Shown in pieces: positions 6,669 through 61,147 of a DNA stretch of 64,000 bases. The DNA lies in IMG/VR virus record IMGVR_UViG_3300017605_000635, positions 5,750 to 69,749 of that record. One strand, written 5' to 3'. Under the pieces are notes generated by a model that searched no databases, had not been told where the DNA came from, and saw only the letters and a program-made list of their open reading frames with translations. Position 1 is the stretch's first letter, and each line of letters starts with the position of its first letter. The DNA comes from a virus. The position numbers and the translations under genes were made by a program.

Positions 6669-6676
6669 GAGTCCCA

Positions 6677-10391: not shown

Positions 10392-10436
10392 TAGGCCCAG
10401 TCAGCACAGATCAACTGCATTACAAGGAGAGACCAG

Positions 10437-41584: not shown

Positions 41585-41995
41585 TTAGGCCTGGGCGTCA
41601 GGAGGGAGGAACTGAAGATACTCCTTCAACGGTCGAAACCTTCCAGCCCGAGGGACGGGAACTCGATATATTGCCCACCCTAGCTGGGTTAGTCGTTCGT
41701 CTCTCCGTCGATCACGTGCGGGTTCAGCCCCGATTCTATGGTAAGGACCGTCAACCTCTACGCAAATTTTCAATATCGGATGGGCGTAGTCCAGTCGATA
41801 AAAGGAACCGGCAGAATCAAATTTTACCATATATTCTGCGGTATACCCAGAGGATTCCAAACGTTTTCGGATTTCGAAGAGGATGGGATGTTCCCAAAGT
41901 TTCCGTCTCAGGACGAGAGACCTCACCGGCCTGATCACCGGTCTCCGGAGCTTCCGGGGAAGCTTGTGGAATTGAAAGAAAAGACGTTTAACCAT
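41585..41995 (-). CDS. DUF559/Vsr-like endonuclease
   Basis: YRLDYA..KICVEVDGPYH...DRRRDERL..GW. Confidence 0.85.
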   Translation of the reverse strand: MVKRLFFQFHKLPRKLRRPVIRPVRSLVLRRKLWEHPILFEIRKRLESSGYTAEYMVKFDSAGSFYRLDYAHPILKICVEVDGPYHRIGAEPARDRRRDERLTQLGWAIYRVPVPRAGRFRPLKEYLQFLPPDAQA

Positions 41996-42924: not shown

Positions 42925-42979
42925 CTGTGTTCTCCGATTCTTGATTCTTGATTCTTGGTTTGGGTCGTGCTCGTTCATC

Positions 42980-43189
42980 CTACATTTCCGGTCCACCCTT
43001 CGGCAACACCTCCATCTTCTTGGGTTCGGGCTCCTCGGTCTTCACCCAGTGGATCACCGTCACGTCGTAGAACGTTCGTGCCTTCTCCTTTGCATGGGCC
43101 TGATCGCGGCACCCTGCGAAGTTCGTGGTCACCTCTCGCAGAGAACCGTCTCCGTTGCGGAGCGTCATCTTGACTCTATAGACCGGCAT
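42980..43189 (-). CDS. Hypothetical protein
   Basis: ORF in operon order. Confidence 0.5.
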   Translation of the reverse strand: MPVYRVKMTLRNGDGSLREVTTNFAGCRDQAHAKEKARTFYDVTVIHWVKTEEPEPKKMEVLPKGGPEM

Positions 43190-45915: not shown

Positions 45916-47544
45916 CTACTCCTCCTGCAACGCTCGAATCCACGCCGATGACGTCAGGTCTGCGAGGTTCCGCTTTCCTTGGCGCGCCTTGAAGACGACG
46001 TGGTCAATCGTCTTCTGGCCCTTTGGCCCGGTCGCAAGCAGATGGTAGTACGACACCGCCTCGACCTGCCCAGGCCGATGCACGCGGTCTTGCGACTGCA
46101 GATCATCCTTCAAGTTGTAGTCCTCGGAGAGGTTGAAGACCGTATGCGCGGCCGTGAGGTTGAGCCCCATGGAGCCGGTCTTCTTGATCCCCACGACCAC
46201 TGCCGGTCGATCACGTGGAGCCGTCCTCGGGTCGAGGAGCCGTAGCGTGCGATCACGCTCCGCCTTTTTCTGCCCTCCTCGAAGCTCCGCCACTTCCATC
46301 CCCGCGTATCGCTCCCGCAGCGCCGCAACCGTTCGCTCGACCTCCGGAACGAACCGAGACCAGACGAGGAGCTTGAGTGTCGGGTCTTTATAGAGGGTCA
46401 GGTCCATCCACTGGAGGAAGAAATCGAGCTTTTCACGGCTGATCTCCTGAACCGGAGCCGTTGCACTCCGCGCCACGGTGCTCAACGTGGGCGTGGGGTC
46501 TTCGTCCTCGATGTCAAAGATCATCCAATCGGGAATCGTCTCTGCCTTGATGTTCGAGAGGTCTTGCTGCATCTCGATGCCCGGAGCTTCGAGCCCTCCG
46601 AGGAACCCGGAGGTGATCTGCGCGAGGCGCATGACCTTCGTGATTGCTTGTTGCGCAACCGAGATGGTCGACTCTGAGAGCCACGCCACGAGTTCGTCTC
46701 GCATCTCTCGATACAGCTTCCACGTCGAGGCATCCATCGGAACGGTAAAGATGACGGGCGGAAGCTTCTCCGGGAGGTCGAGACATTCGGCCTTGAGTCG
46801 ACGAATGACGTAGGGTGCGAGCCGTTGTTGAAGGTCGTCGAGGTTGACCCAACCGACGATTTGCCGATTCTCGAAGCCTCCGAGAATCGCGTATTTGGAT
46901 TTGAACTGTGTGTACGTCGGGAGCCCGATGATCCGAGGGTCGAGGAGGAGCCCTTGGGCAAAGAGGTCTCCGGGGTTGTTCGGCACCGGCGTGCCGTTCA
47001 GGAGCCACGACCAACCGCATCGCTTCCGGAGTTCTCGGCACGCTCTAAACTGCTGGCTCTGCGAGTTCTTGACGAGGCTCGACTCATCGAGGATGATGAC
47101 CGTTTTTGGGCCGCAGAAGTTGAACAGCTGCTTGTAGACGGTTCTGTCTCGGATGTATTCGTAGTTCGTAATGACCCACTTGAGCGATTGCTTTGTCTTC
47201 CCCTCGAAGAACCACTGGTTAGGTCTCGACCGGAACTCCGTGATCACTGATCCAAAGCCATCCCACAAGTGCTTTCGAAGTTCTCCAAGCTCCGACTCGA
47301 ACCAGACTGGGCGCACTCCATTCGGGCAGACGACCAATGCTCGATCAACCATCCCCTCGTAGGCGAGGACTTGCGCCGCATCGATCACCTGTTTCGTCTT
47401 CGCCACGCCCATCTCATCGAAGAGACCGAAGCACCGAGGGAAGATACGCCCTCGGGCGGGGTCAATCTCCTTGATCAACTCCTCGACGCCAACCACTTGG
47501 TGGGCGTAGGGCGGGAGCCGAGTGTATTGGCGGAAGTCGATCAT
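45916..47544 (-). CDS. SNF2-family (SF2) helicase
   Basis: DEMGVAKT, LDESS, LNGTP, RRLK, GLNLTAA, QSQDRVHRPGQ. Confidence 0.92.
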   Translation of the reverse strand: MIDFRQYTRLPPYAHQVVGVEELIKEIDPARGRIFPRCFGLFDEMGVAKTKQVIDAAQVLAYEGMVDRALVVCPNGVRPVWFESELGELRKHLWDGFGSVITEFRSRPNQWFFEGKTKQSLKWVITNYEYIRDRTVYKQLFNFCGPKTVIILDESSLVKNSQSQQFRACRELRKRCGWSWLLNGTPVPNNPGDLFAQGLLLDPRIIGLPTYTQFKSKYAILGGFENRQIVGWVNLDDLQQRLAPYVIRRLKAECLDLPEKLPPVIFTVPMDASTWKLYREMRDELVAWLSESTISVAQQAITKVMRLAQITSGFLGGLEAPGIEMQQDLSNIKAETIPDWMIFDIEDEDPTPTLSTVARSATAPVQEISREKLDFFLQWMDLTLYKDPTLKLLVWSRFVPEVERTVAALRERYAGMEVAELRGGQKKAERDRTLRLLDPRTAPRDRPAVVVGIKKTGSMGLNLTAAHTVFNLSEDYNLKDDLQSQDRVHRPGQVEAVSYYHLLATGPKGQKTIDHVVFKARQGKRNLADLTSSAWIRALQEE

Positions 47545-48332
47545 CGGGTGGGATACTTTCCCTTGAGCGCATTCGCACAGATGACCTTTACGTCATCGGC
47601 AAAATCGTTCTTGATTATCCATTCGAGATACCCTGTCTCAACCATCCGGAGCGGTTTCCCTCGGTGTTTCCCTCCAAAGTTGACGACCACTTCTCCGTTG
47701 GCCCAGATGAACTTCCCGCCCTTGTCGACGGCTCCGGCCGGAGTGGGGAAGCAGAACGCGGCAAGCTCCGGGATGGTCCGAGGAACGTGGTCCCAGCCCT
47801 CGACCTGGGCGGCCAGAACCTTCTCCGTAGCGGCCACGTCTGCCCCCGCGTCATGGGCGTCCTCGAAGCCTCCCGGGTCGACGAACTCTTTGTATGCAGC
47901 TTGCAGGTTCCGAGGGAAGAGAATCTGAAAGAGGCGAAGCGCATCGACCACGTGGCTTTCGTTCTTCTCCCAGTCCCATTCGACGTGCGCTCGACGCATC
48001 TCCGCCCGGAGCACCTTGAGGTCGTAGGTGACGTTGAACCCAGCCCAATCGACCTTCACGAGGGTCTTCACGAGGACGGGCGCCATCTCATTGAACTTGT
48101 GCGGCTTTTCGAGGCCAATCCGTTCGTTAACGGCGGCATGGTCCTTCGTCGCCTCGGCGGGAACCTCGATGGTCGGGTCCACGAGCGAGACCCATCTGAC
48201 CGGGTCTTTGTCGGGATAGTGCTTAGTGATTGCTATCTGCCAGATGCGGGCTGTCGCTGGGTCGAGACCGGTGGTTTCAAGATCAAGCACCGCCAACGGC
48301 CGTTCCAGCTTCAACACGCGGGCAAGATTCAC
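47541..48332 (-). CDS. DEDDh 3'-5' exonuclease (DnaQ-like)
   Basis: DLETTG, GFNVTYD, AHDAGADV; C-terminal FGGKHRGK...YLEW. Confidence 0.9.
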   Translation of the reverse strand: MNLARVLKLERPLAVLDLETTGLDPATARIWQIAITKHYPDKDPVRWVSLVDPTIEVPAEATKDHAAVNERIGLEKPHKFNEMAPVLVKTLVKVDWAGFNVTYDLKVLRAEMRRAHVEWDWEKNESHVVDALRLFQILFPRNLQAAYKEFVDPGGFEDAHDAGADVAATEKVLAAQVEGWDHVPRTIPELAAFCFPTPAGAVDKGGKFIWANGEVVVNFGGKHRGKPLRMVETGYLEWIIKNDFADDVKVICANALKGKYPTR

Positions 48333-48544
48333 TTCCTCACCCTCAACACTTCGACCTCGGAGGCACGGAGCCCGTTCTCATGGATGATCGGCGTGAACTG
48401 GACGGGCTCTCCCTCCTGGAGTTGCTCGAACAAGGTCTGGTCTCCGAGGAACCCGGAGATGTGGAAGAATCGGGAGTGCCCGTCTTCATCGAGGATGAAC
48501 CCAAACCCTTTTGTAGCATGGACGCGGATGATCGAGCCTTTCAT
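48329..48544 (-). CDS. Cold-shock domain protein
   Basis: KGFGFI (RNP1), FFHIS (RNP2), GLRASEV. Confidence 0.85.
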   Translation of the reverse strand: MKGSIIRVHATKGFGFILDEDGHSRFFHISGFLGDQTLFEQLQEGEPVQFTPIIHENGLRASEVEVLRVRK

Positions 48545-49050
48545 GATTGCCCTCGGGAGTCGATTTCGGATTGGAGATACCACAACGCTTTCCGGAGGTC
48601 TTCGAGGCTATCGGCTCCCGGCTTTCGGCCGGCACGACAGATGTACTTCGTGGCGTTGCCGAGGCGGTAATTGAGCTTCCACGCGTCGACCACCTTGATG
48701 TGTTCGTAGAGGTCAGCGGCTCCGCCGTAGTGGGCTGGGTGGTTGACGCGTTCCTCCTCGACCGGAGAGAGGTCTTGGATTTGGTCCTCGGGAATCTGAG
48801 TCACCGGAGTTCGATGGAGGAGCCCGACTCCATCCTGGTAGCCCATCCGCCCTTCACCGTGTATCGGGCAATCCGTCGAGGGAGATTTGCCCGCCAGGCA
48901 AATACAGTTGGGGTGACGCTTCTTCGGTCGAGGCACGCCGTGGATGGGGCACTGCGGGTCGACCTCCAAGCTATCCTCAATCGCTCCGGGCGGACAGATA
49001 CACTTGGGCCCCATCTTCTCCTCAGGCACGTAATGATTCTCCTCGCTCAT
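48541..49050 (-). CDS. DUF3310 protein (T7 gp1.7 nucleotide-kinase family) with N-terminal Cys/His repeats
   Basis: VNHPAHY, GNATKYICRAGRK, EDLRKALWYL. Confidence 0.85.
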   Translation of the reverse strand: MSEENHYVPEEKMGPKCICPPGAIEDSLEVDPQCPIHGVPRPKKRHPNCICLAGKSPSTDCPIHGEGRMGYQDGVGLLHRTPVTQIPEDQIQDLSPVEEERVNHPAHYGGAADLYEHIKVVDAWKLNYRLGNATKYICRAGRKPGADSLEDLRKALWYLQSEIDSRGQS

Positions 49051-50099
49051 GATTTCGCCTCCCACGCAGTCTTCCGTCGTTCTATCCATTCGATGCCGGC
49101 ACAACACCAATCGACGTGACAGAACGGTTTAAGAACGTCGATTGCTCGATTGAACCGCTCCGGAGCCGGAGTGCCCTTGTAGACACAGTGAGCAAAGAGC
49201 ATCGACCAAACGATATGCCCCCAGACTTCGTTCCAGTCCTCCTTGTTTGGGATTTGGAGGACGAGGAGTTGAAAATCCGTGTCGGCGTCTTCGAGGATGC
49301 TCTGAATGATTTTGTCGTTCCCCTCGTGCGTATTCAATTGCATTGAGTGTGTGTAGATGGTTCCGTCTTCGTAGGGGTTGGGAATCGGCTCCGGCGTCGC
49401 ATACAACGGCTCTCGAAGGAGCGGCAGCGTCCGCTCGAACACCTCGACATACGCGTGGTAGTTGACGGAGACCTGCCGATAGACGCCCATCGGGACGCCT
49501 ATCCAGTTGGCCATGTATTCAAGGAGGAACGAGAAGTGGACGGCGTTGGCGCCGTAAGCTCCCCAGATGATATCGTTCGACCGGTTAAAGACGGTCAACT
49601 CCAGCTTACCCTCGGTGTTGATCTGGAAGGTGGCTTCGAGGTTGCAAGGGAGGTCTTTGCCCTGGCGCCCGAGATCAGCCTCCACATCCCACATCTGGAG
49701 AACCTGACGACGGTCCTCGGGATTTCGCTTGAGTGCTTCGGCAATGAGCTCAAGTTGGTCGATGTCGAAATGTCTCCGCCATCGGAACCCGTAGGCTCCC
49801 CAGAGCAGACTTCCGTCGTCGGAGTAGGCCGCCATCTGCTTCGCATAGCGGAGCAACGGCACCACATCATTCCTCCCGGCCAACATCCACAACGACTCGT
49901 ACAGATGGAAGAACGGGTTGGCATCTCGCTCCGGCCAGAACAGGACTCGTTCCCACGGTCGTTCGTAGACAGTACACACAGGCCACGGTGCCTGGAGGAC
50001 TGGACCGTTACGGCTCTCTCGACGGATGCCGTGCTCCTTGAGGAGCCGGAGCCCGAGGGGAAGTGCCTCGTGAACATTGCGTGCCTCGATGACTTTCAT
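49047..50099 (-). CDS. Thymidylate-synthase homologue, probable dUMP hydroxymethylase
   Basis: SRNG, ANPFF, GAYGFRWR, DLPCN, NRSND..WGAYGAN; ATG at 50099. Confidence 0.85.
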   Translation of the reverse strand: MKVIEARNVHEALPLGLRLLKEHGIRRESRNGPVLQAPWPVCTVYERPWERVLFWPERDANPFFHLYESLWMLAGRNDVVPLLRYAKQMAAYSDDGSLLWGAYGFRWRRHFDIDQLELIAEALKRNPEDRRQVLQMWDVEADLGRQGKDLPCNLEATFQINTEGKLELTVFNRSNDIIWGAYGANAVHFSFLLEYMANWIGVPMGVYRQVSVNYHAYVEVFERTLPLLREPLYATPEPIPNPYEDGTIYTHSMQLNTHEGNDKIIQSILEDADTDFQLLVLQIPNKEDWNEVWGHIVWSMLFAHCVYKGTPAPERFNRAIDVLKPFCHVDWCCAGIEWIERRKTAWEAKS

Positions 50100-50227
50100 C
50101 TTCCCCTCGCTAAGGTTTCGAGAGCCGTAGCAATCCGGAGGAGACTTGTGTTCATGACGAGGAGACCTCCGAGGAGTGCTCCTGCAATGAGTGAAAGGGA
50201 TACGTTGATGAGAAAGTTTTCCTTCAT
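50096..50227 (-). CDS. Small membrane protein, 43 aa
   Basis: MKENFLINVSLSLIAGALLGGLLV; ATGA overlap with the TS-like gene. Confidence 0.5.
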   Translation of the reverse strand: MKENFLINVSLSLIAGALLGGLLVMNTSLLRIATALETLARGR

Positions 50228-50293
50228 CCTTTAATCCTTTCGTCGAACCCCGAGGGAACCCCCACGTGCCCCCTCGGGTATCCGTGTTAGAGG

Positions 50294-51331
50294 TTACTGA
50301 ACTGACGAGAGAAATACGTCGTACACCCGACGTTCCCGCGTGCGGTCGGCATCGAGTCCGTTTTTGCCGGGAGCCGTTCGTGTAAGCAAAGTTCCTTGGA
50401 ACCGATACCGATTGCCGTTCCCGTCTCGACGATAGCTCTCCACCCACGAGGTCAAGAGCCCGGCATAGTTCGTGAGGAACGGAGACCGCTCCGACGACTC
50501 TGCGACGCCATTGTGGTTACGGTCGTGCCACCATTCGAGCTTCGCTCCGAGTGGTTGTGTCGAGTCAATGACGGCGACAGCCACCCCGCCATTCAGAGAC
50601 ATATTGATCTTCTGAGCAGCATCGAATCCGTTCACGGCTCCGGCAATAGTCCAGTTCCCAAGTAGATTTCTGCCGCAGACTTGTCCCGAGGTCGGGAGGT
50701 CGTAGGTTAAGAAGGCGACATCACTGTTCACCTCCGTCCACGAGGTCATCTTCTTCGTGCCGTCACAGTTGAAGTCGAACATGACTCCGTCCTCTGGGCG
50801 CGTGAACTTCACGTTCTGGCTCCCTCCGGTATTCGCAACGATGGGACTCTGACACTGCCAGTTGCTTGCGTAGTAATTCCATTCGTATTCGCAGTAGTTG
50901 TCGGGTGGCGGAGGGGGGCAATTTGCCTGCACGTTGATGAACGATGGACCGGGCTCAACCCAAATACCAGGATGGAACGGATCAGGCATGTATGACCCTC
51001 TTGCCCCAGCCGCAACCGCCGCTCCACAAGCCCACCATTCCGCCTGGGCCACCGAATCTTCAAGAGTGTATTCATCGTGGTCCGTGCAGTGACTGGTTTC
51101 GCTGTCCCAGTAACTCCCGCCTGTGCACATTGCCATAGCTCCCGGGAACCAGACTTCGATTTGGGTGCCGGCACAGTCGCCCGGGCGTTGCATCGCAAAT
51201 GCCCGTATGATATTTGTACTGCTTGCGTCGGCTAGTACAAACGCTCCCGGAGTACAGTTCTGCGCTTGCGCCTCTCTCGACAAACCCAACACCCCGAGGG
51301 ACATGAGCATCACGATTCCTACGCTTCTCAT
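50294..51331 (-). CDS. Secreted Cys-rich protein with bacterial Ca-binding-like (SPI...FD...WT...D.N.NG) domain
   Basis: Signal peptide ...AQA|Q; CPPPPP; DRNHNG; SD GGAGG. Confidence 0.75.
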   Translation of the reverse strand: MRSVGIVMLMSLGVLGLSREAQAQNCTPGAFVLADASSTNIIRAFAMQRPGDCAGTQIEVWFPGAMAMCTGGSYWDSETSHCTDHDEYTLEDSVAQAEWWACGAAVAAGARGSYMPDPFHPGIWVEPGPSFINVQANCPPPPPDNYCEYEWNYYASNWQCQSPIVANTGGSQNVKFTRPEDGVMFDFNCDGTKKMTSWTEVNSDVAFLTYDLPTSGQVCGRNLLGNWTIAGAVNGFDAAQKINMSLNGGVAVAVIDSTQPLGAKLEWWHDRNHNGVAESSERSPFLTNYAGLLTSWVESYRRDGNGNRYRFQGTLLTRTAPGKNGLDADRTRERRVYDVFLSSVQ

Positions 51332-51375
51332 CTTGCTACCCTCCTTTGACGGTTGCCCTGGGTTGGTACGACGAC

Positions 51376-52251
51376 TTACACGGCTCCTGGATACTTGGAC
51401 CTCGGCTCACCCTCTCCGAACTTCACCCGGCAATACTTATCGAACTCGCAGAGGCTATGTTCGATTTCGCGCATCTCCAGGTCTGGAACATGATCCTCTC
51501 GAACCTTTCCCCATGGGGAATCGCTCGCATACCGGTTGTCACTGATATCGAGGAGCATCTTCATCGAGCGGATAGCCTCTTCCCGAGGTTTGTGTTTAAG
51601 TTCGAGCCGTCGCAGTCCTCGAATCGCCCCAGGCCCGGGGTTGGCCCACGTCATGATGTCGGTCGCATCGTTCAGGAGAACGGTCCACCGCATATCCGAG
51701 ACCATCTCATAGCCCATGAAACCGCCGACACCCTTGACAGTCTGAAGGAGGTCGAACGTCTTCTCCAGGCTCCTCGTTCCACGTGCCGTCTCGGCAAGCT
51801 TGAAACGGAGGTCGAATAGCCTGGAGCAGTAGCTCACAATGGCGTCGACCTTCGGGATACCCGGTTCACTCCACACGATGTGTGCGCCGGTGAAGACCTG
51901 TTCCCCCTCGGAGAGCCGCTGTTCCAACAGCGCTTCGATGTCGGCTCCTCGCCAATCGGTCTTCCAGCCTAGAACCTCTGCCGTGCCCGTCCAGTTGAAC
52001 ATCCGATACCAACAGATGTTGAAGGCAATCTCTTCGAACGGCGCATCGCGGTGCGGGTCGAGGAAGTTCTTGGTCAGCCAGACAGTGCCGGCATCGAGTT
52101 GCCGAAAGGCATTGGTGAACTTGTAGTCGCGGAGAATCGGATCAGCGGTCCACGGCTTGGGCTCCCCCGCCATCCGCTTCAGGTAGATGCGATGTCGCTC
52201 ATTGATCCAATAGAAGAAGAGGTCAATGGGCGCGGTCTGGAGGTCTTTCAT
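51376..52251 (-). CDS. aGPT-Pplase1 / 5-hmdU DNA kinase helical-domain protein
   Basis: ERHRIY, PWTADPIL..YKFTN.FR..D, GPGAIRGL, IEHSLCEFDKY. Confidence 0.85.
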   Translation of the reverse strand: MKDLQTAPIDLFFYWINERHRIYLKRMAGEPKPWTADPILRDYKFTNAFRQLDAGTVWLTKNFLDPHRDAPFEEIAFNICWYRMFNWTGTAEVLGWKTDWRGADIEALLEQRLSEGEQVFTGAHIVWSEPGIPKVDAIVSYCSRLFDLRFKLAETARGTRSLEKTFDLLQTVKGVGGFMGYEMVSDMRWTVLLNDATDIMTWANPGPGAIRGLRRLELKHKPREEAIRSMKMLLDISDNRYASDSPWGKVREDHVPDLEMREIEHSLCEFDKYCRVKFGEGEPRSKYPGAV

Positions 52252-52277
52252 TCGTTCATCCGTCCTTTCCGAAGTTG

Positions 52278-52850
52278 TTAGATAAGTCGGAGTCGTTTCA
52301 ACGTCTCCTGCAACGCCTCTTCCCGGGAGAGCTTCATCACCTCCACTCCCGCATCTTTCAATCGAGGGAGGATGGACGTCATGAGTCGACGGTTGCGGCT
52401 CTCGGTGTTCTTTGGGCTCAGTGGACGGTCGTCTCCGCGTTCATCGCGTCGAGCTTGAATTCCCTTGAGACACTCGTCGATGGGGGTGGTCAACGCGAGG
52501 ACGAGGAGCGGAAAGGAGCGGTGGAGAGCAATCGTGCGCGTGACGTCGTCTTGACTGATGATGCCCTCGAAGAGGACATCGTGGCCGGGAAGACCTTCGG
52601 CGTGGTCGCGCACGGAGTCGAAGACATCGCCCGGGCTCTTGAGCGTATCGCCTCCGCCGCACGCGGTTTCGTAGTGACCAACCACCCAAAGCGGAGGACG
52701 GAGCCCCGTCGAGTCCCATTCGAGGACATACCCATAGGGCTGTTTGCGCCCGTCGATGAATTTGGGAGTCTTGCGATGGTAGCGGTCCATCACCGCTCGA
52801 ACGAGCGTTGACTTGCCGGAGCCGCCAGTGCCACGGATGTTCACAATCAT
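52278..52850 (-). CDS. P-loop kinase (5-hmdU DNA kinase type)
   Basis: NIRGTGGSGKST, GHYETACGGGD, LFEG. Confidence 0.85.
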   Translation of the reverse strand: MIVNIRGTGGSGKSTLVRAVMDRYHRKTPKFIDGRKQPYGYVLEWDSTGLRPPLWVVGHYETACGGGDTLKSPGDVFDSVRDHAEGLPGHDVLFEGIISQDDVTRTIALHRSFPLLVLALTTPIDECLKGIQARRDERGDDRPLSPKNTESRNRRLMTSILPRLKDAGVEVMKLSREEALQETLKRLRLI

Positions 52851-52870
52851 TCCTTCGTCCTTTCATTCGT

Positions 52871-52908
52871 CAAAAGGAGGTCGAGAAGGGCATGAACTTC
52901 TCGACCTC
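52871..52908 (-). terminator. Intrinsic terminator-like hairpin just upstream of the kinase RBS
   Basis: 12-bp perfect stem gaggtcgagaag/cttctcgacctc, then CTTTT on the minus strand. Confidence 0.7.
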
Positions 52909-53038
52909 TAACCGCGAGAGTCCGAAAGCGAAACGATACCGGAGTCGGAGCGGAGTTACAACACCCTTCTCCGCCCGTCTCCGAGGACTCCCGGAGGGAG
53001 GCTGGCCCGAGGGCCAGGGCTCCTCCCTCGGGTCGTTT

Positions 53039-53704
53039 CTACGTGGCCCGGGCCATGTCCTTCCGGGCTCTCCGGTCTCGGAGGTCTTCGAGCCGATGGG
53101 TGAGGAACTCGTGGGTTCGGAGGTATTCCATTTCGGCATACCGCCAATCCCACGGTTGCCATCCGAGACGTATCTTGATTCGGTCCCACTCCTTGTCGGT
53201 GATGGCCGGGTAGTCAGGCTCCCGGATGACGAAGTCTCGACCGAAGCTGAATGCCCCCTCGAAGCGGACCATGAGCTTATCGGCTTCGAGGACGGGCGGA
53301 GACATCACTGTCGAGAGCCCCCAGTGACGATAGAGCATCGTTTGCGCCCGGTCTTCCGCCTCGCAGTATGCCTTCATTGGCGGAGACTCCTTCAACCACT
53401 TGGTGACGTCTCCGAGGATGTACTCCGAGTCGTCGTGGTGGAGCCCTTGCAGACTCACGAGGAGCAACAACTCTCTCCACTGGGAGTCGTCAATGGGGGT
53501 GTACCCTTGATTCGCAAGCAATGCTGCAAGCTTTGAGACGTACACCGCGTGCTGCGCCGTCGACAACGGCTCCCTCGACGCTCCGGCCCACCGGTTCTGA
53601 ATTGCCAGGTGATGGGCCACGTCTTCGAGGACAATGTCCTCCGGGCGGAGGTCGAGTGGATTGACCTTCTTGCGTGACGGATAGGTTGTGATGAATGGGT
53701 CCAC
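53039..53704 (-). CDS. HD-domain deoxynucleotide phosphohydrolase (YfbR-like)
   Basis: DVAHHL...RWAG, STAQH, LHHDDSEYILGDV, ADK. Confidence 0.85.
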   Translation of the reverse strand: MDPFITTYPSRKKVNPLDLRPEDIVLEDVAHHLAIQNRWAGASREPLSTAQHAVYVSKLAALLANQGYTPIDDSQWRELLLLVSLQGLHHDDSEYILGDVTKWLKESPPMKAYCEAEDRAQTMLYRHWGLSTVMSPPVLEADKLMVRFEGAFSFGRDFVIREPDYPAITDKEWDRIKIRLGWQPWDWRYAEMEYLRTHEFLTHRLEDLRDRRARKDMARAT

Positions 53705-53721
53705 GGTCTCTCGTCCTTTCG

Positions 53722-55140
53722 TTAGACAACTTCAAGGCGGATGACGCTTTTGGGTTTGTCCCAAGGGTTCCGGAGATCAGGGAGCCGCAGCGCTTTTGCC
53801 GCTGTTAAGACCTCGGAGCCACAGAGCGATTGTTCGTGCCCATCGCCACAACGCAAGCACCCCGAGGGTGGGCACTCCTCCATCGGTTCGAAGTGATATC
53901 CGCGTTCACCGGTCGTGAGATTCCCAGTATCAACACGCCGGTGCATGGGCACCATATGGCCGTGGCACTGGTCGGCCGTCAAGAACTCGGGGCCCATCGA
54001 CTTCCACATCACCGAGTTGACCCGCGTGTATTCGTAGCAGAGCGAGTAGGTCATCCCGAGTTGCTTGGCCCGGGCGCTGTAGAGCGTATGCCCCTCCCGT
54101 CGATACTCCTCGACAATCGTCTTCTGTCCACCGCACTGGTTCTCGGTGAACAGTTCCGCGAACCTCCGAGACCGCTCGTCAGGGAACTTCTTCGTGATCC
54201 GCTCGACCATCGCCCGGGCCCACGCGTGTCCCGCCTCGACGAACTTCACGATGACGTGGTCGGCTCCCGCCTCTGCGAGTCGTTCGAAGAGGTGGAGCAC
54301 GTCGTCGTGGGAGACGACTCCGGGGATGATCGGATTGCATTGGATGGAGACGTAGATGCCCTGAGCGTGCAACTCCCGTATTTCGTCGAGATGCTCAGCG
54401 AGGGAGACCGCTCCCGGAGAAAGGCGATGCCACGTGTCCTGGTCCGGGGTGTTGAGAGACTTTTGCGCATAGCTGTACTTGTTCTGCCTCAGGATGTCGA
54501 ACGCCCACGATGGGTAGTGGAGGCGAGAGAGGAAGAAGACAGGGAGCCCTGCGTCTGTAAAAGCTTGCGCGCCTTCTTGAGTGTTGTGGTAATACTCCTC
54601 GATTGGGAGGAACGGGTCCGTGAACGAGGAGAAGTAGCCGGCAGCGGAAACCTGCATGGATTTAAGTTGTTTTCGGACGTGAGCCCCGTATCCGAGAGGA
54701 ACAGTAACAAGTCCACTGCCACGGTATCCTCGGGCGCCACTGTTGATGTAGCAAAATTGGCAACCAACCGAACACCATCCGCCGTATGGCTGAGTGAGAA
54801 TGGCATCAGTCTCACACGGGCGGTCTCGTTGCCCGTTTTCGAGTCCATCACCTTTACTCGAATACCAACCCTGTAAATCCTTTCCCTTGTCTTGGCGGAT
54901 GTGCGGAAACGGGTCGAGGAAGACCGTGACGTCTTTGAGGTTCTCTTCTTTTGCACCGCGCACCATCCCTATCTTTGCCCACCGCTGCTTCATCACCCGG
55001 CCGGTAACGTCGTCGTGCTTCTCCTCGATAGGTCCGAGGATGTCGCGCATTTCCGGGTCGACCTTCATGAAATACTGGTAGGCTTTCCGCGTAGTTGACT
55101 CTTCGTCGAGATTGGCGAGGAAGTCTGTTTCACTTTGCAT
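53722..55140 (-). CDS. Radical SAM enzyme (SPL-like)
   Basis: PYGGWCSVGCQFCY (CxxxCxxC), FTDPF, NPIIPG; start ATG 55140 with SD. Confidence 0.9.
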   Translation of the reverse strand: MQSETDFLANLDEESTTRKAYQYFMKVDPEMRDILGPIEEKHDDVTGRVMKQRWAKIGMVRGAKEENLKDVTVFLDPFPHIRQDKGKDLQGWYSSKGDGLENGQRDRPCETDAILTQPYGGWCSVGCQFCYINSGARGYRGSGLVTVPLGYGAHVRKQLKSMQVSAAGYFSSFTDPFLPIEEYYHNTQEGAQAFTDAGLPVFFLSRLHYPSWAFDILRQNKYSYAQKSLNTPDQDTWHRLSPGAVSLAEHLDEIRELHAQGIYVSIQCNPIIPGVVSHDDVLHLFERLAEAGADHVIVKFVEAGHAWARAMVERITKKFPDERSRRFAELFTENQCGGQKTIVEEYRREGHTLYSARAKQLGMTYSLCYEYTRVNSVMWKSMGPEFLTADQCHGHMVPMHRRVDTGNLTTGERGYHFEPMEECPPSGCLRCGDGHEQSLCGSEVLTAAKALRLPDLRNPWDKPKSVIRLEVV

Positions 55141-55142
55141 GG

Positions 55143-55409
55143 TTATCTCCTGGAATCTCCCCCGGGGTCCAACGCGATCAAGAGGATGACCGTCCAAACC
55201 ACGAGACCGATGCCGATGATCGCTGCGGCGGTGTACGTTCCGTATTCGCTGTTGAGCCCATAGCCTGCATACGCGAACAAGACCACGGCCAGGTAAAACG
55301 GAATCGAGAGAAACACCACCCTCTGCGTAAAGCTCGTCATGTCATTCATCCTTTCAGGAGGTTCGTTGTGAATCTTCTTCCAAACGTCGTAGTTGTACTT
55401 AGGATACAC
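55143..55409 (-). CDS. Two-TM membrane protein
   Basis: Two hydrophobic helices. Confidence 0.6.
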   Translation of the reverse strand: MYPKYNYDVWKKIHNEPPERMNDMTSFTQRVVFLSIPFYLAVVLFAYAGYGLNSEYGTYTAAAIIGIGLVVWTVILLIALDPGGDSRR

Positions 55410-55410
55410 G

Positions 55411-56232
55411 CTACGCTCCGATATTCCACATCAGCACCGGCTGACGTAACGTCTCCATCACTCCAGGCGTATGCATCCACGCCCAGGCGCGAACTTCGTA
55501 GTGCGCATGCGCCGGGAACGGCGGCAACCGCTCTGCCCGGTTTTCGTAGTAGTCACACATCGACGTCACGACCCGGAGCCGGTTCTGGATGCACGGACCG
55601 AGACCCGCCATCCGCTCGACCTCCCTCCGGAACCGCTGCTCCTCTCTCGCATACCCCTGCACCGCGATGACGTGCCCCTCGAAGCCTCGGAGGACACCCG
55701 CGAGGTGGGTTCCCGTTCCCGTCGGCACCACGACGCACCCGGGGTTGGCCTCTCCTACAGCCTCCCGAGTCTCTGCCTCTACGGCCGCAACCGTCTCCGG
55801 AAGGCGGAGCCCGGTGGGGAAGAGGAACCACGGCTCATAGACCTGCTGAATCAGGTGGTTCGCCATCTCGTAACGCATTGTGAACTGTCGGCCTGCCACG
55901 AGGGGCACGAGGGGAACCCCAAGAGACCGCACCGCCAGACACGGCCCGGGAATTGCCTCCGGGTCGCCAACGTATTGCGGGTATCCGACCAGCACCTTGC
56001 GCCCGAGGGTCAACCCGATGGTCGCCACGAGTTGCCCGTTCAAGCTCCGGCCGGTATCGACCACGGCCATCACCCGGACATCCGGTCGAGCCTCCATCGC
56101 CGCATAGACACCCCTTGCCTTCGAGAGCGGAGGGAATGGCCAACAGAGGTCTTCACGCTTGACGAGAACTTCGACATCGTGGACCTTGTACCCCTCGATG
56201 GGCGTCTTGGAGAGCGTAGCAACGGTGGTCAC
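55411..56232 (-). CDS. PLP-dependent fold-type II enzyme (probable decarboxylase in thymidine modification)
   Basis: VKREDL...SKARG (PLP Lys), VPTGTGT, MWNIG; GTG start 56232. Confidence 0.8.
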   Translation of the reverse strand: MTTVATLSKTPIEGYKVHDVEVLVKREDLCWPFPPLSKARGVYAAMEARPDVRVMAVVDTGRSLNGQLVATIGLTLGRKVLVGYPQYVGDPEAIPGPCLAVRSLGVPLVPLVAGRQFTMRYEMANHLIQQVYEPWFLFPTGLRLPETVAAVEAETREAVGEANPGCVVVPTGTGTHLAGVLRGFEGHVIAVQGYAREEQRFRREVERMAGLGPCIQNRLRVVTSMCDYYENRAERLPPFPAHAHYEVRAWAWMHTPGVMETLRQPVLMWNIGA

Positions 56233-56462
56233 AGAAGACCTCGAATCAACCGCCAGACCTCCGCTCCAATCCACCCCAGCGCAATAACCGCTACCCAACA
56301 GAACACCGCGAGGAGAACCACCACGAGCCCTTTGAACGGGAGGCTGGGCTCCATCTCCGGCTCCTCGGGAGCGGATAGCACGTCCTCGAAGTGACGGCGG
56401 GTGTTTTCGGCGGCGCCTGTGGCCTTCTCGAACGGGTCTCGACCTTGGGGACTATACGCCAT
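56229..56462 (-). CDS. Single-TM membrane protein
   Basis: C-terminal hydrophobic helix; coupled overlaps. Confidence 0.55.
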   Translation of the reverse strand: MAYSPQGRDPFEKATGAAENTRRHFEDVLSAPEEPEMEPSLPFKGLVVVLLAVFCWVAVIALGWIGAEVWRLIRGLL

Positions 56463-57294
56463 GGGCCATTTCCTCCTTCATCATCCACGCGTGCATGTTG
56501 TAGGCGGTCGGTGAAACGTTAATCCACGGTTCGAGGGCGTGCTTCAGTTCCTTTGTGTCGATGCCGACCGGATAGATGCCGTTGACGTGGGCCTTCCACT
56601 TGCAGAGGATGGTCTCGAACTCCTGGAGCCCGAGGGAACGGTTGTTGGTTGGGGGAGCCTTGAGGTCAGAGAGATTCAGTTGAAGATGATCTACAGCCAC
56701 GGTGTTCCAACCGTCTCGCCCATAGGATGAAATGGTTGACTTTTCTGCCCACATCTTTGCGGCTTCCGACGGAGAATCATAGAACATGTCCGCCTTCGAG
56801 AACTGCACTGGCACGTCGAACAACCGCTCCAACATGTCGGCTACCTTGAAGGCTATCCAAGGACCGAACTGGGGCCATACGGTGACGGCGTTTTTGACGT
56901 GCTGGTAGGTGACGGGCTCTTTCAACGATTCAAGGAGGAACACCGGCCGTTCGGGCTCGCTGTAGTAGGCTCGCATGAACCAGTCGACTGCCGCCACCGC
57001 TTTGTCCCCTCGAAAGTGTCGCCGCTCTCGACCTCGGGGCCACCGTCCTCCGACCGGGCTCTCACTCGTATTGTACGCGAACTGAAGCATGGGCCCCCAA
57101 AAATCGGGCTGCTCAGAAATCCACGAGGCAAGACCCGCGTGGTAGCACATCCAGTAGGCTAGGCACCAACGGCGGAGTTGATCGCGGTCCATTCCTGCGG
57201 CGTGGACCACGTTGTAGACCGGATCAAGGTCTCCGGCTTCGATCAGTTTCCGCCCGAACGTTTCGAGCGGTAGCACGTCATACTTGGGCGTCAT
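56452..57294 (-). CDS. Amino acid:DNA transferase (aGPT-Pplase2)
   Basis: GDLDPVY, LAYWMCYHAG, WPRGRERRHFRG, FGPWIAFKVADM, ETILCKWK. Confidence 0.85.
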   Translation of the reverse strand: MTPKYDVLPLETFGRKLIEAGDLDPVYNVVHAAGMDRDQLRRWCLAYWMCYHAGLASWISEQPDFWGPMLQFAYNTSESPVGGRWPRGRERRHFRGDKAVAAVDWFMRAYYSEPERPVFLLESLKEPVTYQHVKNAVTVWPQFGPWIAFKVADMLERLFDVPVQFSKADMFYDSPSEAAKMWAEKSTISSYGRDGWNTVAVDHLQLNLSDLKAPPTNNRSLGLQEFETILCKWKAHVNGIYPVGIDTKELKHALEPWINVSPTAYNMHAWMMKEEMAHGV

Positions 57295-57455
57295 TCGTTC
57301 GTCCTTTCTTTCGTTCGTTTATCAGTTGATCGATTATCTTCCCCAACGTCAATTCCTCGGGGCATTTCTTGCAGGGAACTCGATGCCCCCCGAGGCAATG
57401 AGGGTCTGGGCACTTGTTGAGACGGTTGCAGTCATTACATCGTTGCCAATGCATG

Positions 57456-57683
57456 TTACTTCTCCGTCACCACCAGCGTCTTCTCTTCGAACGGCAGCGG
57501 GTCTCCTCGGTTTTCCTCCGAGGTCGAAAGCTTCACCCCCGAGGTCTCAAGCTCCCCCGCCAGGAGCTTCCGGAGAATATCCGACATTGGCACGTTCCGC
57601 TCTCGGGCCAAGTCCTTCAGCGCTTGCTTCTCCTCTCGGGAGACCGTGAACCCGATGAATTCGTCGCCGGCATAGCTTGTCAT
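57456..57683 (-). CDS. Ribbon-helix-helix (CopG-like) regulator
   Basis: FIGFTVS.EEKQALKDLARERNVPMSDILR. Confidence 0.75.
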   Translation of the reverse strand: MTSYAGDEFIGFTVSREEKQALKDLARERNVPMSDILRKLLAGELETSGVKLSTSEENRGDPLPFEEKTLVVTEK

Positions 57684-58099
57684 CTGAATATCTCCACTTG
57701 ATGTGTCATCGCAATCGTCTCGACGACTCCGTTGAAATCGAACCCTCGACTGACCCAGAGGAACGGATACTTGTCCCACTCCTTGATCCCCATCGGTGGA
57801 ATGATCCGGGTCGACGTTCTGTCCGGGTCTCGGGCATCAAAGATGATGTAGTAGGCTCGATGGCACTGGGCGGAGAGCCGCTTCATCGTGAGTTCTTGAA
57901 TCCCCGGGGATTCAAAATCTGGGTCGGCGTATTTGAACTCCCAAATGCTCGTGACGTTGTTCCCGGTGACCCAGAGGTCAGGGATACCGCTTTTGAACCG
58001 GTCTTGGAATGGGAGCCAGACCCACGAGGGTTGCGCCTGGCGTCCGAGTTCGATGACCTTGGCCTTGAGCTTGTTCTCGTTCCAGCGTGTGCGTCTCAT
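57680..58099 (-). CDS. PD-(D/E)xK nuclease, Holliday-resolvase/VRR-NUC-like
   Basis: GIPDL...WEFK...Q. Confidence 0.7.
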   Translation of the reverse strand: MRRTRWNENKLKAKVIELGRQAQPSWVWLPFQDRFKSGIPDLWVTGNNVTSIWEFKYADPDFESPGIQELTMKRLSAQCHRAYYIIFDARDPDRTSTRIIPPMGIKEWDKYPFLWVSRGFDFNGVVETIAMTHQVEIFR

Positions 58100-58286
58100 T
58101 CATTCCTCCGGTCAATCGTTCTTTGAGTCACGCGTGCCCACGGTCTCGGAATCGAGGAGTATGCCGACCAGAGGTTCAGTCGACCATCGTCATTCCAATA
58201 GACCATTGGCTTATGATCCTCGGAGAGACAGACACCGCACCCGTCTCCGGGTTCGAGAGCGATATGGGGATGACGACGGCAGGGGA

Positions 58287-58493
58287 TCATTCCCAAATCT
58301 CCTTATCTGGATATGGGTGTTTGACGTTACGTTTCTCCAGCTGTTTACGACGGTGTTCAAGGCAAAGAACAGACACTTTAACTTTACCTGATGCCGTTCG
58401 GTAAAAGTAAACGGAGTTATTACATAGTTCACACAACCCGTTTTCCTTTTGTCGTAATTGCCACCGTCGTTGCCGGGAAAGGACGTTCGTCAT
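58287..58493 (-). CDS. Small Zn-binding protein
   Basis: GLCELC...LCLEH. Confidence 0.55.
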   Translation of the reverse strand: MTNVLSRQRRWQLRQKENGLCELCNNSVYFYRTASGKVKVSVLCLEHRRKQLEKRNVKHPYPDKEIWE

Positions 58494-60484: not shown

Positions 60485-60705
60485 CGGTACATCCTCCGGG
60501 CCACATCTCCGACTTGCAGGGGAGAGGCGGTGCCGCCTGCGAGGCGGTGTCGTGCCGCTCCCTCCCGAAAGTTCAAGTCCCAGGACCCATCCCCCACGTC
60601 GACCGTCTCTCCGCAGACCCGGCAGACGTATTGACCCTGGGCATCCTTTCGGACGAGGACACCTCGGCAGATGGCGTGGAGGAGGGGTGCCGGTTTACGT
60701 TTCAC
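60481..60705 (-). CDS. Small Zn-ribbon protein
   Basis: HAICRG...CRVCG. Confidence 0.5.
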   Translation of the reverse strand: MKRKPAPLLHAICRGVLVRKDAQGQYVCRVCGETVDVGDGSWDLNFREGAARHRLAGGTASPLQVGDVARRMYR

Positions 60706-61147
60706 GTGGGCACCGCTCTCCTGCCTCGTGGATGATCGGGTTCATCAGTCGACCCTCGATGAGACTGCACCGGTAGCACGCGATTCGGTGCAATACGTTT
60801 TCGAGGGCTCGCAACTCCGGGTCAACCGGAGGAAGCTCGAACGTCAGCCGGAGGTTTGGGAACTGGGGGCAGTGCTTCTCGTGCTGGACGAGCCCTTGCG
60901 CCCGTTCGATATTGCAGCATGGTGGAGGAGCCGGCAAGAGTTCATCCGGAGGTTCGAGCGGCCCACACCACACGACTCCCGGCGTGGAGTCGTAGTCGGA
61001 GAGGTCGGCATCGGAATCCGTGCCGGTGAAGAGGACGGCGGTATAGTCCTCGATGTCGAACCGAGGGTCACCCTGCACCGCCTTGAGTTCGACGATGCGT
61101 GGCCCTTCTCCGTCTTGGAGGTCCACCCAGTAGTAGCCGGGAGTCAT
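60695..61147 (-). CDS. Hypothetical protein (PGYYW...WCGPLEPP)
   Basis: ATGA overlap; motif common in phage early proteins. Confidence 0.6.
   Translation of the reverse strand: MTPGYYWVDLQDGEGPRIVELKAVQGDPRFDIEDYTAVLFTGTDSDADLSDYDSTPGVVWCGPLEPPDELLPAPPPCCNIERAQGLVQHEKHCPQFPNLRLTFELPPVDPELRALENVLHRIACYRCSLIEGRLMNPIIHEAGERCPRET

What the first reader, a model, noticed from the sequence alone, without database searches (positions are those of the whole stretch)
49047..57294. Complete thymidine-hypermodification pathway resembling phage M6 aminoethyl-uracil synthesis, with extra nucleotide-pool enzymes
Seen in order: amino acid:DNA transferase (aGPT-Pplase2), PLP enzyme, radical SAM, HD phosphohydrolase, P-loop kinase, aGPT-Pplase1/helical protein and a TS homologue with Asn at the dUMP-specificity position (GAYGAN). 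Known: Pseudomonas phage M6 puts 5-hmdU in DNA, phosphorylates it, transfers glycine, isomerises with a radical SAM enzyme and decarboxylates with a PLP enzyme to 5-aminoethyl-dU. Inference: this otherwise unrelated-looking phage replaces T with 5-hmdU and makes 5-NedU or a new variant; the HD enzyme may deplete dTTP/dTMP or supply dUMP.
Basis: partly seen in the sequence, partly recalled or inferred. Interest (0 to 1): 0.8.

Follow-up and report, generated by a model that had tools for sequence, protein, structure and literature searches.

The report
M6-type aminoethyl-uracil DNA modification cassette
An uncultivated soil-type phage carries the same set of enzymes that Pseudomonas phage M6 uses to turn thymine into 5-(2-aminoethyl)uracil in its DNA, so it is a new carrier of a known anti-restriction pathway and not a new pathway.

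Summary
On the minus strand of 49047-57294 lie, tightly packed, an amino acid:DNA transferase, a PLP enzyme, a radical SAM enzyme, an HD phosphohydrolase, a P-loop kinase, the clade-1 helical partner, an unrelated secreted protein and a thymidylate-synthase homologue. Five are clear homologues of M6 gp51, gp52, gp53, gp55 and gp58 (33-57% identity). The kinase is closest to the characterised PaMx11 5-hmdU DNA kinase gp49 (41%). Published catalytic and donor-selecting residues are kept: transferase Cys247, Glu243/Thr244 and the glycine determinants Trp146, Lys150, Lys248, Tyr257; the CxxxCxxC cluster; the PLP lysine; the TS cysteine and Asn. The best reading is therefore dUMP to 5-hmdUMP, incorporation, phosphorylation, glycine transfer, N-to-C isomerisation and decarboxylation to 5-NedU. 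The "extra" HD enzyme is not extra, because M6 and PaMx11 also carry a YfbR-like HD gene, though of another PHROG family. The phage backbone is unrelated to M6: no structural gene matches. Lee et al. 2021 already reported M6-like clusters on IMG/VR contigs, so this is a new member of a known kind. A sister phage (L006) swaps the PLP enzyme for a reductase, a flavoenzyme and a methyltransferase, which is the more novel lead. No chemistry could be tested.

The parts
56452..57294 (-). Amino acid:DNA transferase (ADDT, aGPT-Pplase clade 2), glycine type, 280 aa
   Evidence: PF18724 2.2e-17. PDB 25qc 1.5e-60 and 8z2m (PaMx11 gp46) 1.4e-52. 39.5% identity to M6 gp51. Keeps D24, Y47, Y51, R86, E92, R94, H95, R97, W146, K150, E243, T244, C247, D262, E265 and K248/Y257.
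56229..56462 (-). Small ORF, 77 aa, one C-terminal hydrophobic helix. AAGGAGG lies before its ATG and its stop overlaps the likely PLP start (GTGA).
   Evidence: No PHROG. No tblastn match in 7 related loci. Role unknown.
55411..56232 (-). PLP-dependent (fold-type II) enzyme, predicted C-alpha-GlyT decarboxylase. The long ORF runs to 56298; the likely start is GTG 56232.
   Evidence: PF00291 7.5e-10. phrog_7093 1.1e-37. 34% identity to M6 gp52. The SKxRGV lysine aligns with M6 gp52 K36 (K36 is named in PMC8989533 section 19). Start.
55143..55409 (-). Small ORF, 88 aa, two hydrophobic helices, wedged between the PLP stop and the rSAM start
   Evidence: No PHROG. No match in related loci. Role unknown.
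53722..55140 (-). [quoted passage not shown]
   Evidence: phrog_9252 3.3e-190. 56.6% identity to M6 gp53. CSVGCQFC aligns with M6 CTVGCAFC, and 7 further cysteines are invariant in 5 of 5 sequences.
53039..53704 (-). HD-domain YfbR-like 5'-deoxynucleotidase candidate, 221 aa
   Evidence: phrog_318 'deoxyribonucleoside 5' monophosphate phosphatase' 1.8e-30. PF12917 1.2e-3, below cut-off. PDB 2gz4 7e-5 with the H..HDxxEYxxGD motif aligned. 40-42% identical homologues in L006 and L007.
52278..52850 (-). P-loop 5-hmdU DNA kinase (5-HMUDK), 190 aa, Walker A GTGGSGKST
   Evidence: 41% identity, E 2e-31, to PaMx11 gp49. 26% to PhiW-14 gp37. 22% to M6 gp54 over the full length, E 2e-6. PF18748 not matched.
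51376..52251 (-). HMUDK_hel / aGPT-Pplase clade 1 protein, 291 aa, HhH-glycosylase-like fold, invariant LCEFDKY motif
   Evidence: PF18723 1.1e-52. 37% identity to M6 gp55. AF2 model pLDDT 81.5. Best structural match PaMx11 gp46: Z 10.6, rmsd 4.0 A, 212 residues. Motif invariant in 8 of 8 sequences.
50294..51331 (-). 345-aa Cys-rich protein with an N-terminal signal peptide. Probably a passenger gene and not part of the pathway.
   Evidence: No Pfam or PHROG match. Only 5 homologues in the 5.8-billion-protein set, all metagenomic. No match in related loci.
49047..50099 (-). Thymidylate-synthase-family enzyme, predicted dUMP hydroxymethylase, 350 aa
   Evidence: PF00303 2.9e-19; phrog_5131 1.9e-121. 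52% identity to M6 gp58 and 47% to PaMx11 gp51. Best PDB hit is the CMP hydroxymethylase MilA at 7.5e-19, against the best TS at 1e-12. DLPCN and NRSNDxxWGAYGAN are conserved.
48541..49050 (-). DUF3310 protein (candidate nucleotide kinase). Its ATG overlaps the TS stop (ATGA).
   Evidence: PF11753 4.4e-11. phrog_236 'nucleotide kinase' 1.3e-19. Overlap read. M6 gp61 is also DUF3310.

Best explanation
This is a working copy of the phage M6 pathway for 5-(2-aminoethyl)-2'-deoxyuridine (5-NedU), carried by a complete 69.7-kb uncultivated phage of another lineage. Steps inferred by homology: (1) The TS-family enzyme hydroxymethylates dUMP to 5-hmdUMP. The YfbR-like HD enzyme probably removes dTMP or other dNMPs, and the DUF3310 protein may phosphorylate 5-hmdUMP; both roles are inferred only. 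(2) The phage PolA puts 5-hmdU into DNA. (3) The P-loop kinase phosphorylates 5-hmdU in DNA to 5-PmdU. (4) The clade-2 transferase attacks C6 with its cysteine, expels phosphate and adds glycine to give N-alpha-GlyT. (5) The radical SAM enzyme shifts the link from N to C-alpha. (6) The PLP enzyme decarboxylates that product to 5-NedU. The modified DNA should resist restriction enzymes. The clade-1 HhH protein belongs to the module, but its role is unknown.
For: Homology to the characterised enzymes: ADDT 39.5%, PLP 34%, rSAM 56.6%, clade-1 protein 37% and TS 52% identity to M6 gp51/52/53/55/58. The kinase is 41% identical to PaMx11 gp49, E 2e-31. The gene order matches M6 except for the position of HD.

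Residue tests:
- 15 of 20 PaMx11 gp46 functional residues are identical, including C247, E243, T244, D24, W146 and K150 (residues taken from PMC11472151 sections 14, 16 and 22).
- K248 and Y257, which coordinate the glycine carboxylate and suffice to switch a diamine transferase to glycine, are both present. PhiW-14 has G and D at these positions (PMC13458397 section 38).
- The CxxxCxxC motif and 7 more invariant cysteines are present.
- The PLP lysine is present.
- The TS cysteine and Asn motif are present, and the best PDB hit is a hydroxymethylase.

The TS homologue's nearest cultured relatives are all phage groups known or predicted to use 5-hmdU: M6-like, PaMx11, SPO1-like and ViI-like. 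The biochemistry of the M6 enzymes comes from PMC8989533 sections 14 (part 1), 18 and 19. The genes are tightly packed, with ATGA and GTGA overlaps.
Against: No chemistry was tested, and the phage is uncultivated.
- ADDT (about 40%) and the PLP enzyme (34%) are far from the characterised proteins. PMC13458397 shows that donor choice in this family can turn on two residues and is broad in vitro.
- The kinase does not match Pfam PF18748 and is only 22% identical to M6 gp54.
- The Radical_SAM and YfbR-like Pfam hits fall below their curated cut-offs.
- The HD protein shows no BLAST similarity to M6 gp59 or PaMx11 gp52 and sits in another PHROG family.
- Nmad5 (M6 gp56) and dCMP deaminase are absent from the complete genome.
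- The hydroxymethylase activity of this TS clade is inferred, not assayed, in what I read.
Confidence: 0.8

Rival explanations
1. The cassette makes a different final base from 5-NedU. The diverged transferase could load another small amine or amino acid, or the diverged PLP enzyme could perform a reaction other than decarboxylation.
For: ADDT is only 38-41% identical and the PLP enzyme only 34% identical to the characterised enzymes. 5 of 20 PaMx11 gp46 functional positions differ: L142Q, F173Y, D175S, H256I, K261I. PMC13458397 (sections 33 and 38) stresses unexplored donor diversity. Close relatives do vary the tailoring set.
Against: All five published glycine-contacting or glycine-selecting residues are kept: D24, W146, K150, K248, Y257. 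The rSAM enzyme, which acts on N-alpha-GlyT, is 57% identical to M6 gp53. No additional tailoring enzyme (FAD, acetyltransferase, methyltransferase) lies in the cluster.
Confidence: 0.12
2. The TS homologue is an ordinary thymidylate synthase and the cluster is inactive or a relic, so the virion DNA carries normal thymine.
For: Pfam and PHROG name the protein only 'thymidylate synthase'. Asn at the specificity position is shared by true TS.
Against: All reading frames are intact, tightly coupled and keep their catalytic residues. The TS homologue is closest to the hydroxymethylase-clade proteins of hmdU phages, and its best PDB hit is a hydroxymethylase. A 5-hmdU DNA kinase would have no substrate without 5-hmdU.
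Confidence: 0.04
3. The pathway stops early, at N-alpha-GlyT or C-alpha-GlyT, because the rSAM or PLP step does not work in the unknown host.
For: rSAM enzymes are oxygen-sensitive and need host Fe-S assembly and a reductant (PMC8989533 section 18).
Against: Both genes are intact and conserved at 66-75% identity in sister phages, which argues for selection on function.
Confidence: 0.04

Closest known systems
Pseudomonas phage M6 / YuA 5-NedU cluster (gp51 glycine:DNA transferase, gp52 PLP decarboxylase, gp53 rSAM isomerase, gp54 5-HMUDK, gp55 clade-1 aGPT-Pplase, gp58 TS homologue, gp59 HD, gp61 DUF3310)
   Same: Same enzyme set and the same order ADDT-PLP-rSAM-kinase-helical-TS. Identity 33-57% for five proteins. 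Catalytic and glycine-selecting residues are kept.
   Different: HD lies between rSAM and the kinase, not after TS, and belongs to phrog_318 not phrog_6047. The kinase is PaMx11-like (41%) and not M6-like (22%). There is no Nmad5, dCMP deaminase or RNR. Two small membrane ORFs and a secreted protein are inserted. No structural gene matches M6.
Pseudomonas phage PaMx11 5-AcNmdU cluster (gp46 PUGT, gp47 FAD lyase, gp48 acetyltransferase, gp49 5-HMUDK, gp50, gp51 TS, gp52 HD)
   Same: The first two DNA-level steps are shared: kinase 41% and ADDT 37% identical, with solved-structure residues conserved. TS is 47% identical, and the clade-1 protein and an HD gene are present.
   Different: The window has rSAM plus PLP where PaMx11 has the FAD lyase plus acetyltransferase, so a different end product is predicted.
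M6-like clusters on IMG/VR and GOV2.0 contigs (Lee et al. 2021, PMC8989533, section 21 and the Figure 2 legend)
   Same: That paper reports metagenomic contigs with gene content identical or nearly identical to M6 and predicts that they make 5-NedU.
   Different: I could not see Figure 2 or the supplements, so I cannot tell whether this contig or its lineage is among them. Here the backbone is shown to be unrelated to M6.

Membership tests
M6-type 5-NedU thymidine hypermodification pathway | Clade-2 aGPT-Pplase (ADDT) with the catalytic Cys, the metal ligands and a glycine-type donor pocket | tested here: met
   PF18724. PDB 25qc and 8z2m. C247, E243, T244, D24, W146, K150. K248 and Y257.
M6-type 5-NedU thymidine hypermodification pathway | Radical SAM isomerase homologous to M6 gp53, with CxxxCxxC and cysteines for a second cluster | tested here: met
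   56.6% identity. CSVGCQFC plus 7 further invariant Cys in 5 of 5 sequences.
M6-type 5-NedU thymidine hypermodification pathway | Fold-type II PLP enzyme homologous to M6 gp52, with the aldimine lysine | tested here: met
   34% identity. The SKxRGV lysine aligns with K36.
M6-type 5-NedU thymidine hypermodification pathway | 5-hmdU DNA kinase (P-loop) | tested here: met
   41% identity, E 2e-31, to the assayed PaMx11 gp49 (Table 1 of PMC8989533). However, Pfam PF18748 is not matched.
M6-type 5-NedU thymidine hypermodification pathway | TS-family dUMP hydroxymethylase near the cluster | tested here: inconclusive
   Homology (52% to M6 gp58), conserved Cys/Asn motifs and a hydroxymethylase as best PDB hit. 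Hydroxymethylase and methylase cannot be separated by sequence here.
M6-type 5-NedU thymidine hypermodification pathway | 5-NedU present in virion DNA | not testable with these tools
   The phage is uncultivated. No reads informative on base chemistry were found.
M6-type 5-NedU thymidine hypermodification pathway | Nmad5 protein (M6 gp56), an accessory of unknown role | tested here: not met
   PF18757 is absent from the complete genome at E<=1. It is an accessory gene and is not required in the published reconstitution.
Mesyanzhinovviridae (the phage family of M6, YuA and PaMx11) | Shared structural and packaging genes | tested here: not met
   No structural ORF hits M6: of 325 six-frame ORFs, the 12 hits are 8 replication or modification genes plus 4 shadow frames. 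The best cultured TerL match is 37%, to Rhizobium phages.

The most novel reading that the evidence does not exclude
The clade-1 protein (51376-52251) may not be a passive 'helical domain' of the kinase. It could be a second base-flipping enzyme acting on 5-PmdU or 5-hmdU in DNA. It has the same HhH fold as the glycine transferase, and its invariant E-H-S/T-L-C-E-F-D-K-Y motif lines up with the transferase's E-T-x-L-C-K catalytic cysteine. One candidate activity is the still unassigned conversion of unmodified 5-hmdU sites to thymine, or the choice of which sites are modified.
Probability: 0.15. Interest if true: 0.7.

Novelty: new member of a known kind. Interest (0 to 1): 0.3.

Why it matters
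It shows the complete M6-type 5-NedU enzyme set travelling as a cassette into a phage lineage with unrelated structural genes, with signs of mosaic origin: a PaMx11-like kinase alongside an M6-like rSAM enzyme and TS homologue. This fits the published picture of a modular, recombining pool of thymidine hypermodification genes, and it adds diverged sequences that still keep the published glycine determinants. Practical value lies in predicting resistance of such phage DNA to restriction enzymes and to library preparation, and in supplying enzyme variants for DNA labelling. The sister phage L006, which lacks the PLP enzyme, points to an undescribed product and is the better target for discovery.

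Tried and rejected
- Complex prediction of the kinase with the clade-1 protein (alignments A1 and A2): verdict 'no answer', score 0.00. This is not evidence either way.
- The look-up of sequencing runs on the cluster: 3 soil-metagenome runs from one study, each holding only 5-6% of the sampled words, and no RNA holder listed.
- Promoter and terminator scan of 47500-61000: counts at or below the shuffled expectation, 2 vs 3.2 and 10 vs 11.6.
- tRNA scan of the window: none found.
- PDB sequence searches: PLP enzyme and kinase, no hit; rSAM and clade-1 protein, only chance-level hits.
- hhalign of the clade-1 alignment against the ADDT alignment: E 0.074, probability 0.76. This is too weak on its own, though it pairs the two conserved motifs.
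- BLASTP of the HD protein against M6 gp59: only a 33-residue match, E 0.022.
- PF26745, recorded for the secreted protein's homologues, is not in the local Pfam copy.
- The idea that HD and DUF3310 are 'extra' enzymes was rejected, because M6 and PaMx11 carry both kinds.
- The supplements and figures of the four key papers were not seen.
Full report
**Setting.** The window is bases 5750-69749 of a 69,749-bp IMG/VR virus record with direct terminal repeats, which CheckV rates 100% complete. G+C is 55-63% throughout, with no compositional break at the cluster. No tRNA gene is present.
- Structural genes lie on the plus strand up to about 33.2 kb: TerL phrog_38, portal phrog_146.
- Replication and modification genes lie on the minus strand from about 33.2 kb to the end: PolA, SNF2 and UvrD helicases, an RNase T-like exonuclease.
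- A PrimPol-VapE primase lies in the 5.7 kb outside the window.

**Observation.** The finding's seven genes are all present on the minus strand, in the stated order. In the direction of transcription the cluster reads:

| Gene | Coordinates | Notes |
|---|---|---|
| PolA | 58490-60484 | |
| Two small ORFs | between PolA and ADDT | |
| ADDT | 56452-57294 | |
| Membrane ORF | 56229-56462 | 77 aa |
| PLP enzyme | 55411-56232 | likely GTG start; its first bases overlap the preceding stop as GTGA |
| Membrane ORF | 55143-55409 | 88 aa |
| Radical SAM enzyme | 53722-55140 | |
| HD protein | 53039-53704 | |
| P-loop kinase | 52278-52850 | |
| HMUDK_hel | 51376-52251 | |
| Signal-peptide protein | 50294-51331 | 345 aa |
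| TS homologue | 49047-50099 | |
| DUF3310 protein | 48541-49050 | its ATG overlaps the TS stop as ATGA, behind a GGGAGG site |

Family matches are far beyond chance for ADDT, HMUDK_hel, TS, rSAM (by PHROG) and PLP. The Pfam hits for Radical_SAM (20.4 bits against a cut-off of 29.5) and YfbR-like (19 against 25.9) fall below their cut-offs. The kinase gives only generic AAA hits in Pfam. Homology starts at Met117.

**Comparison with M6.** M6 gene order is gp51 ADDT, gp52 PLP, gp53 rSAM, gp54 kinase, gp55 clade-1 protein, gp56 (Nmad5), gp57, gp58 TS homologue, gp59 HD (YfbR-like), gp60, gp61 (DUF3310), gp62 PolA.

tblastn of the window's 17 neighbourhood proteins against the M6 and Bhz59 loci gave the following identities to M6:

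| Window protein | M6 counterpart | Identity |
|---|---|---|
| ADDT | gp51 | 39.5% |
| PLP enzyme | gp52 | 33.9% |
| rSAM | gp53 | 56.6% |
| Clade-1 protein | gp55 | 37.4% |
| TS homologue | gp58 | 52.0% |
| Kinase | gp54 | 22% (E 6e-4) |
| PolA | gp62 | 24% |
| SNF2 helicase | gp41 | 27% |
| HD protein | gp59 | no hit |

The kinase is instead 41% identical (E 2e-31) to PaMx11 gp49. It is 26% identical to PhiW-14 gp37. Both are listed as assayed 5-hmdU DNA kinases in Table 1 of PMC8989533. The cassette therefore looks mosaic.

A whole-genome check found that, of 325 six-frame ORFs of 80 aa or more, 12 hit M6 at E<=1e-5. These 12 are 8 real genes (the five above plus PolA, SNF2 and a Pam3-gp34-like protein) and 4 shadow frames of the same genes. 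No structural gene matches. The best cultured TerL relative is 37% identical, in Rhizobium phages. The backbone is thus not that of Mesyanzhinovviridae.

**Residue tests.**
- *ADDT, PaMx11 gp46 positions.* In an alignment with M6 gp51, PaMx11 gp46, Bhz59, PhiW-14 gp109 and three metagenomic relatives, the window protein is identical to PaMx11 gp46 at 15 of 20 functional positions. These include the proposed nucleophile C247, the metal ligands E243 and T244, the DNA-kinking R94 and H95, and the glycine contacts D24, W146 and K150. The positions come from sections 14, 16 and 22 of PMC11472151. The five differences are L142Q, F173Y, D175S, H256I and K261I. The F173/D175 pair may be a one-column alignment shift, since the local sequence is MFYDSP.
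- *ADDT, donor-selecting pair.* Section 38 of PMC13458397 states that YuA K248 and Y257 coordinate the glycine carboxylate. It also states that introducing just these two residues turns a diamine transferase into a glycine transferase. The window protein has K and Y at these positions, and PhiW-14 has G and D. No ViI-like (serine-type) record appeared among the 94 phage records matched at E<=1e-5.
- *rSAM.* CSVGCQFC aligns with the M6 CTVGCAFC motif described in section 18 of PMC8989533. Seven other cysteines are invariant in 5 of 5 sequences, which fits the second cluster inferred for gp53.
- *PLP enzyme.* The lysine of SKARGV aligns with M6 gp52 K36, the predicted aldimine lysine.
- *TS homologue.* DLPCN and NRSNDxxWGAYGAN are conserved with M6 gp58 and PaMx11 gp51. 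The best PDB match is the CMP hydroxymethylase MilA (7.5e-19), ahead of any thymidylate synthase (1e-12). The nearest cultured relatives are M6-like, PaMx11, phiRSL1, SPO1-like and ViI-like phages. That SPO1 and ViI phages use 5-hmdU is partly from the papers read and partly recalled.

**HD and other pool enzymes.** The HD protein matches phrog_318, 'deoxyribonucleoside 5' monophosphate phosphatase', at 1.8e-30. It aligns with the HD protein Atu1052 (2gz4, 7e-5) across the H..HDxxEYxxGD motif. That this motif is the YfbR catalytic signature is recalled, not tested.

M6 gp59 and PaMx11 gp52 are also YfbR-like (PF12917 for gp59). They belong to phrog_6047, with only weak cross-hits to phrog_318. 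An HD dNMPase-like gene is therefore a regular companion of these clusters, here supplied by a different family. It is not an extra.

The complete genome has no Nmad5, no PF18748 match and no dCMP deaminase at E<=1. No RNR was seen among the ORFs scanned; those scans covered 30 selected ORFs, not every ORF.

The dTMP-depleting role of HD and the 5-hmdUMP kinase role of DUF3310 are inferences from family names and from translational coupling to the TS homologue.

**Clade-1 protein.** PF18723 matches at 1.1e-52. An AlphaFold2 model built from a 5-sequence alignment has mean pLDDT 81.5.
- Its best Foldseek hit is PaMx11 gp46 (E 0.022, TM 0.44).
- The best VIA hit is the same chain (Z 10.6, rmsd 4.0 A, 212 residues). 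HhH DNA glycosylases follow at Z 10.0 and DUF2419 at Z 9.5.
- By the tool's own note, Z values below about 13 are not decisive for helical proteins.

An 8-sequence alignment that includes M6 gp55 and PaMx11 gp50 has an invariant LCEFDKY motif. A weak hhalign match (E 0.074) lines this motif up with the transferase's ETxLCKWK. Lysate reconstitution in PMC8989533 did not need gp55 to make N-alpha-GlyT. PMC5889632 states that the route from 5-hmdU to thymidine in such phages is unknown (passage seen). This is the basis of the novel reading.

**Relatives.** A scan of viral contigs with the rSAM protein gave 8 pattern matches. Seven were confirmed by tblastn, and six of those are true relatives at 61-75% identity.
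- *L006.* It lies on a 67-kb DTR contig whose TerL is 59% identical to the window's; this was the only TerL hit among the 4 records tested. It has a glycine-type ADDT (43%), rSAM (75%), HD, kinase, clade-1 protein and TS, but no PLP homologue anywhere on the contig. In its place are an aldo-keto reductase, a DAO-like FAD enzyme and a SAM methyltransferase, plus an MT-A70.
- *L007, L008 and L011.* They keep PLP (66%) and rSAM (74%). Their ADDT is only 24% identical, with Asp at the K248 position.

This lineage therefore reshuffles the tailoring enzymes, and the window holds the classical M6 combination.

**What is already in print.** Section 21 of PMC8989533 reports IMG/VR and GOV2.0 contigs with gene content identical or nearly identical to M6 and predicts that they make 5-NedU. 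I could not see Figure 2 or the supplements, so I cannot say whether this contig is among them. One literature search returned 16 papers; none that I opened describes this lineage.

**Verdict.** The pathway assignment is well supported by homology and by residue-level tests, and I put about 0.8 on 5-NedU as the product. The 'extra enzymes' claim is wrong. This is a new carrier of a known system, of modest interest (0.3). The inserted small membrane ORFs and the secreted protein remain unexplained. Two better leads came out of the work: the PLP-less sister cassette in L006 and the conserved cysteine motif of the clade-1 protein.

Noticed in passing
L006:4788-15995 (IMG/VR contig, 67 kb, DTR; TerL 59% identical to the window's): The sister phage's cassette has a glycine-type ADDT, rSAM (75% identical), HD, kinase, clade-1 protein and TS, but no PLP enzyme on the whole contig. 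In its place are an aldo-keto reductase (5867-6727), a DAO-like FAD enzyme (6804-7769), a SAM methyltransferase (9993-10604) and an MT-A70 (12418-12987). I did not see this combination described in the papers I read, so it may make a new thymidine derivative.
   Followed up: partly
L007:6228-7121 (also L008 and L011): This relative keeps PLP (66%) and rSAM (74%), but its ADDT is only 24% identical and has Asp where the glycine transferases have Lys248. That hints at a different donor pocket.
   Followed up: partly
window 56229-56462 and 55143-55409 (minus strand): Two small predicted membrane ORFs (77 and 88 aa) are wedged between ADDT, PLP and rSAM, with overlapping or abutting start and stop codons. 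They are absent from M6 and from all related loci, and have no family match.
   Followed up: partly
window 50294-51331 (minus strand): A 345-aa Cys-rich protein with a signal peptide lies inside the cluster, at the slot where M6 has Nmad5. It has only 5 homologues in 5.8 billion proteins, all metagenomic. They are tagged PF26745, which the local Pfam copy lacks.
   Followed up: partly
window 51376-52251 (minus strand): The clade-1 aGPT-Pplase/HMUDK_hel protein has an invariant LCEFDKY motif (8 of 8 sequences). Its predicted HhH fold is closest to the glycine transferase PaMx11 gp46 (Z 10.6). This suggests a catalytic cysteine and not a purely structural role.
   Followed up: partly
window 48541-49050 (minus strand): The N-terminal half of the DUF3310 protein carries two CIC...CPIHG repeats, which look like a zinc-binding motif. 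Its ATG overlaps the TS stop codon (ATGA), so the two are probably translationally coupled.
   Followed up: no
window 13083-14162 and 16407-17612 (plus strand): An aminotransferase (phrog_3139, 1.4e-48) and a glycosyltransferase (phrog_2170, 2.2e-26) sit inside the structural-gene block. They may be sugar-modification genes for virion or host surface glycans.
   Followed up: no
window 41585-41995 and 42076-42996 (minus strand): A DUF559/MTES_1575-like endonuclease domain protein, and a Pam3 gp34-like protein that is 28% identical to M6 gp44. Pseudanabaena phage Pam3 also turned up as a weak kinase hit.
   Followed up: no
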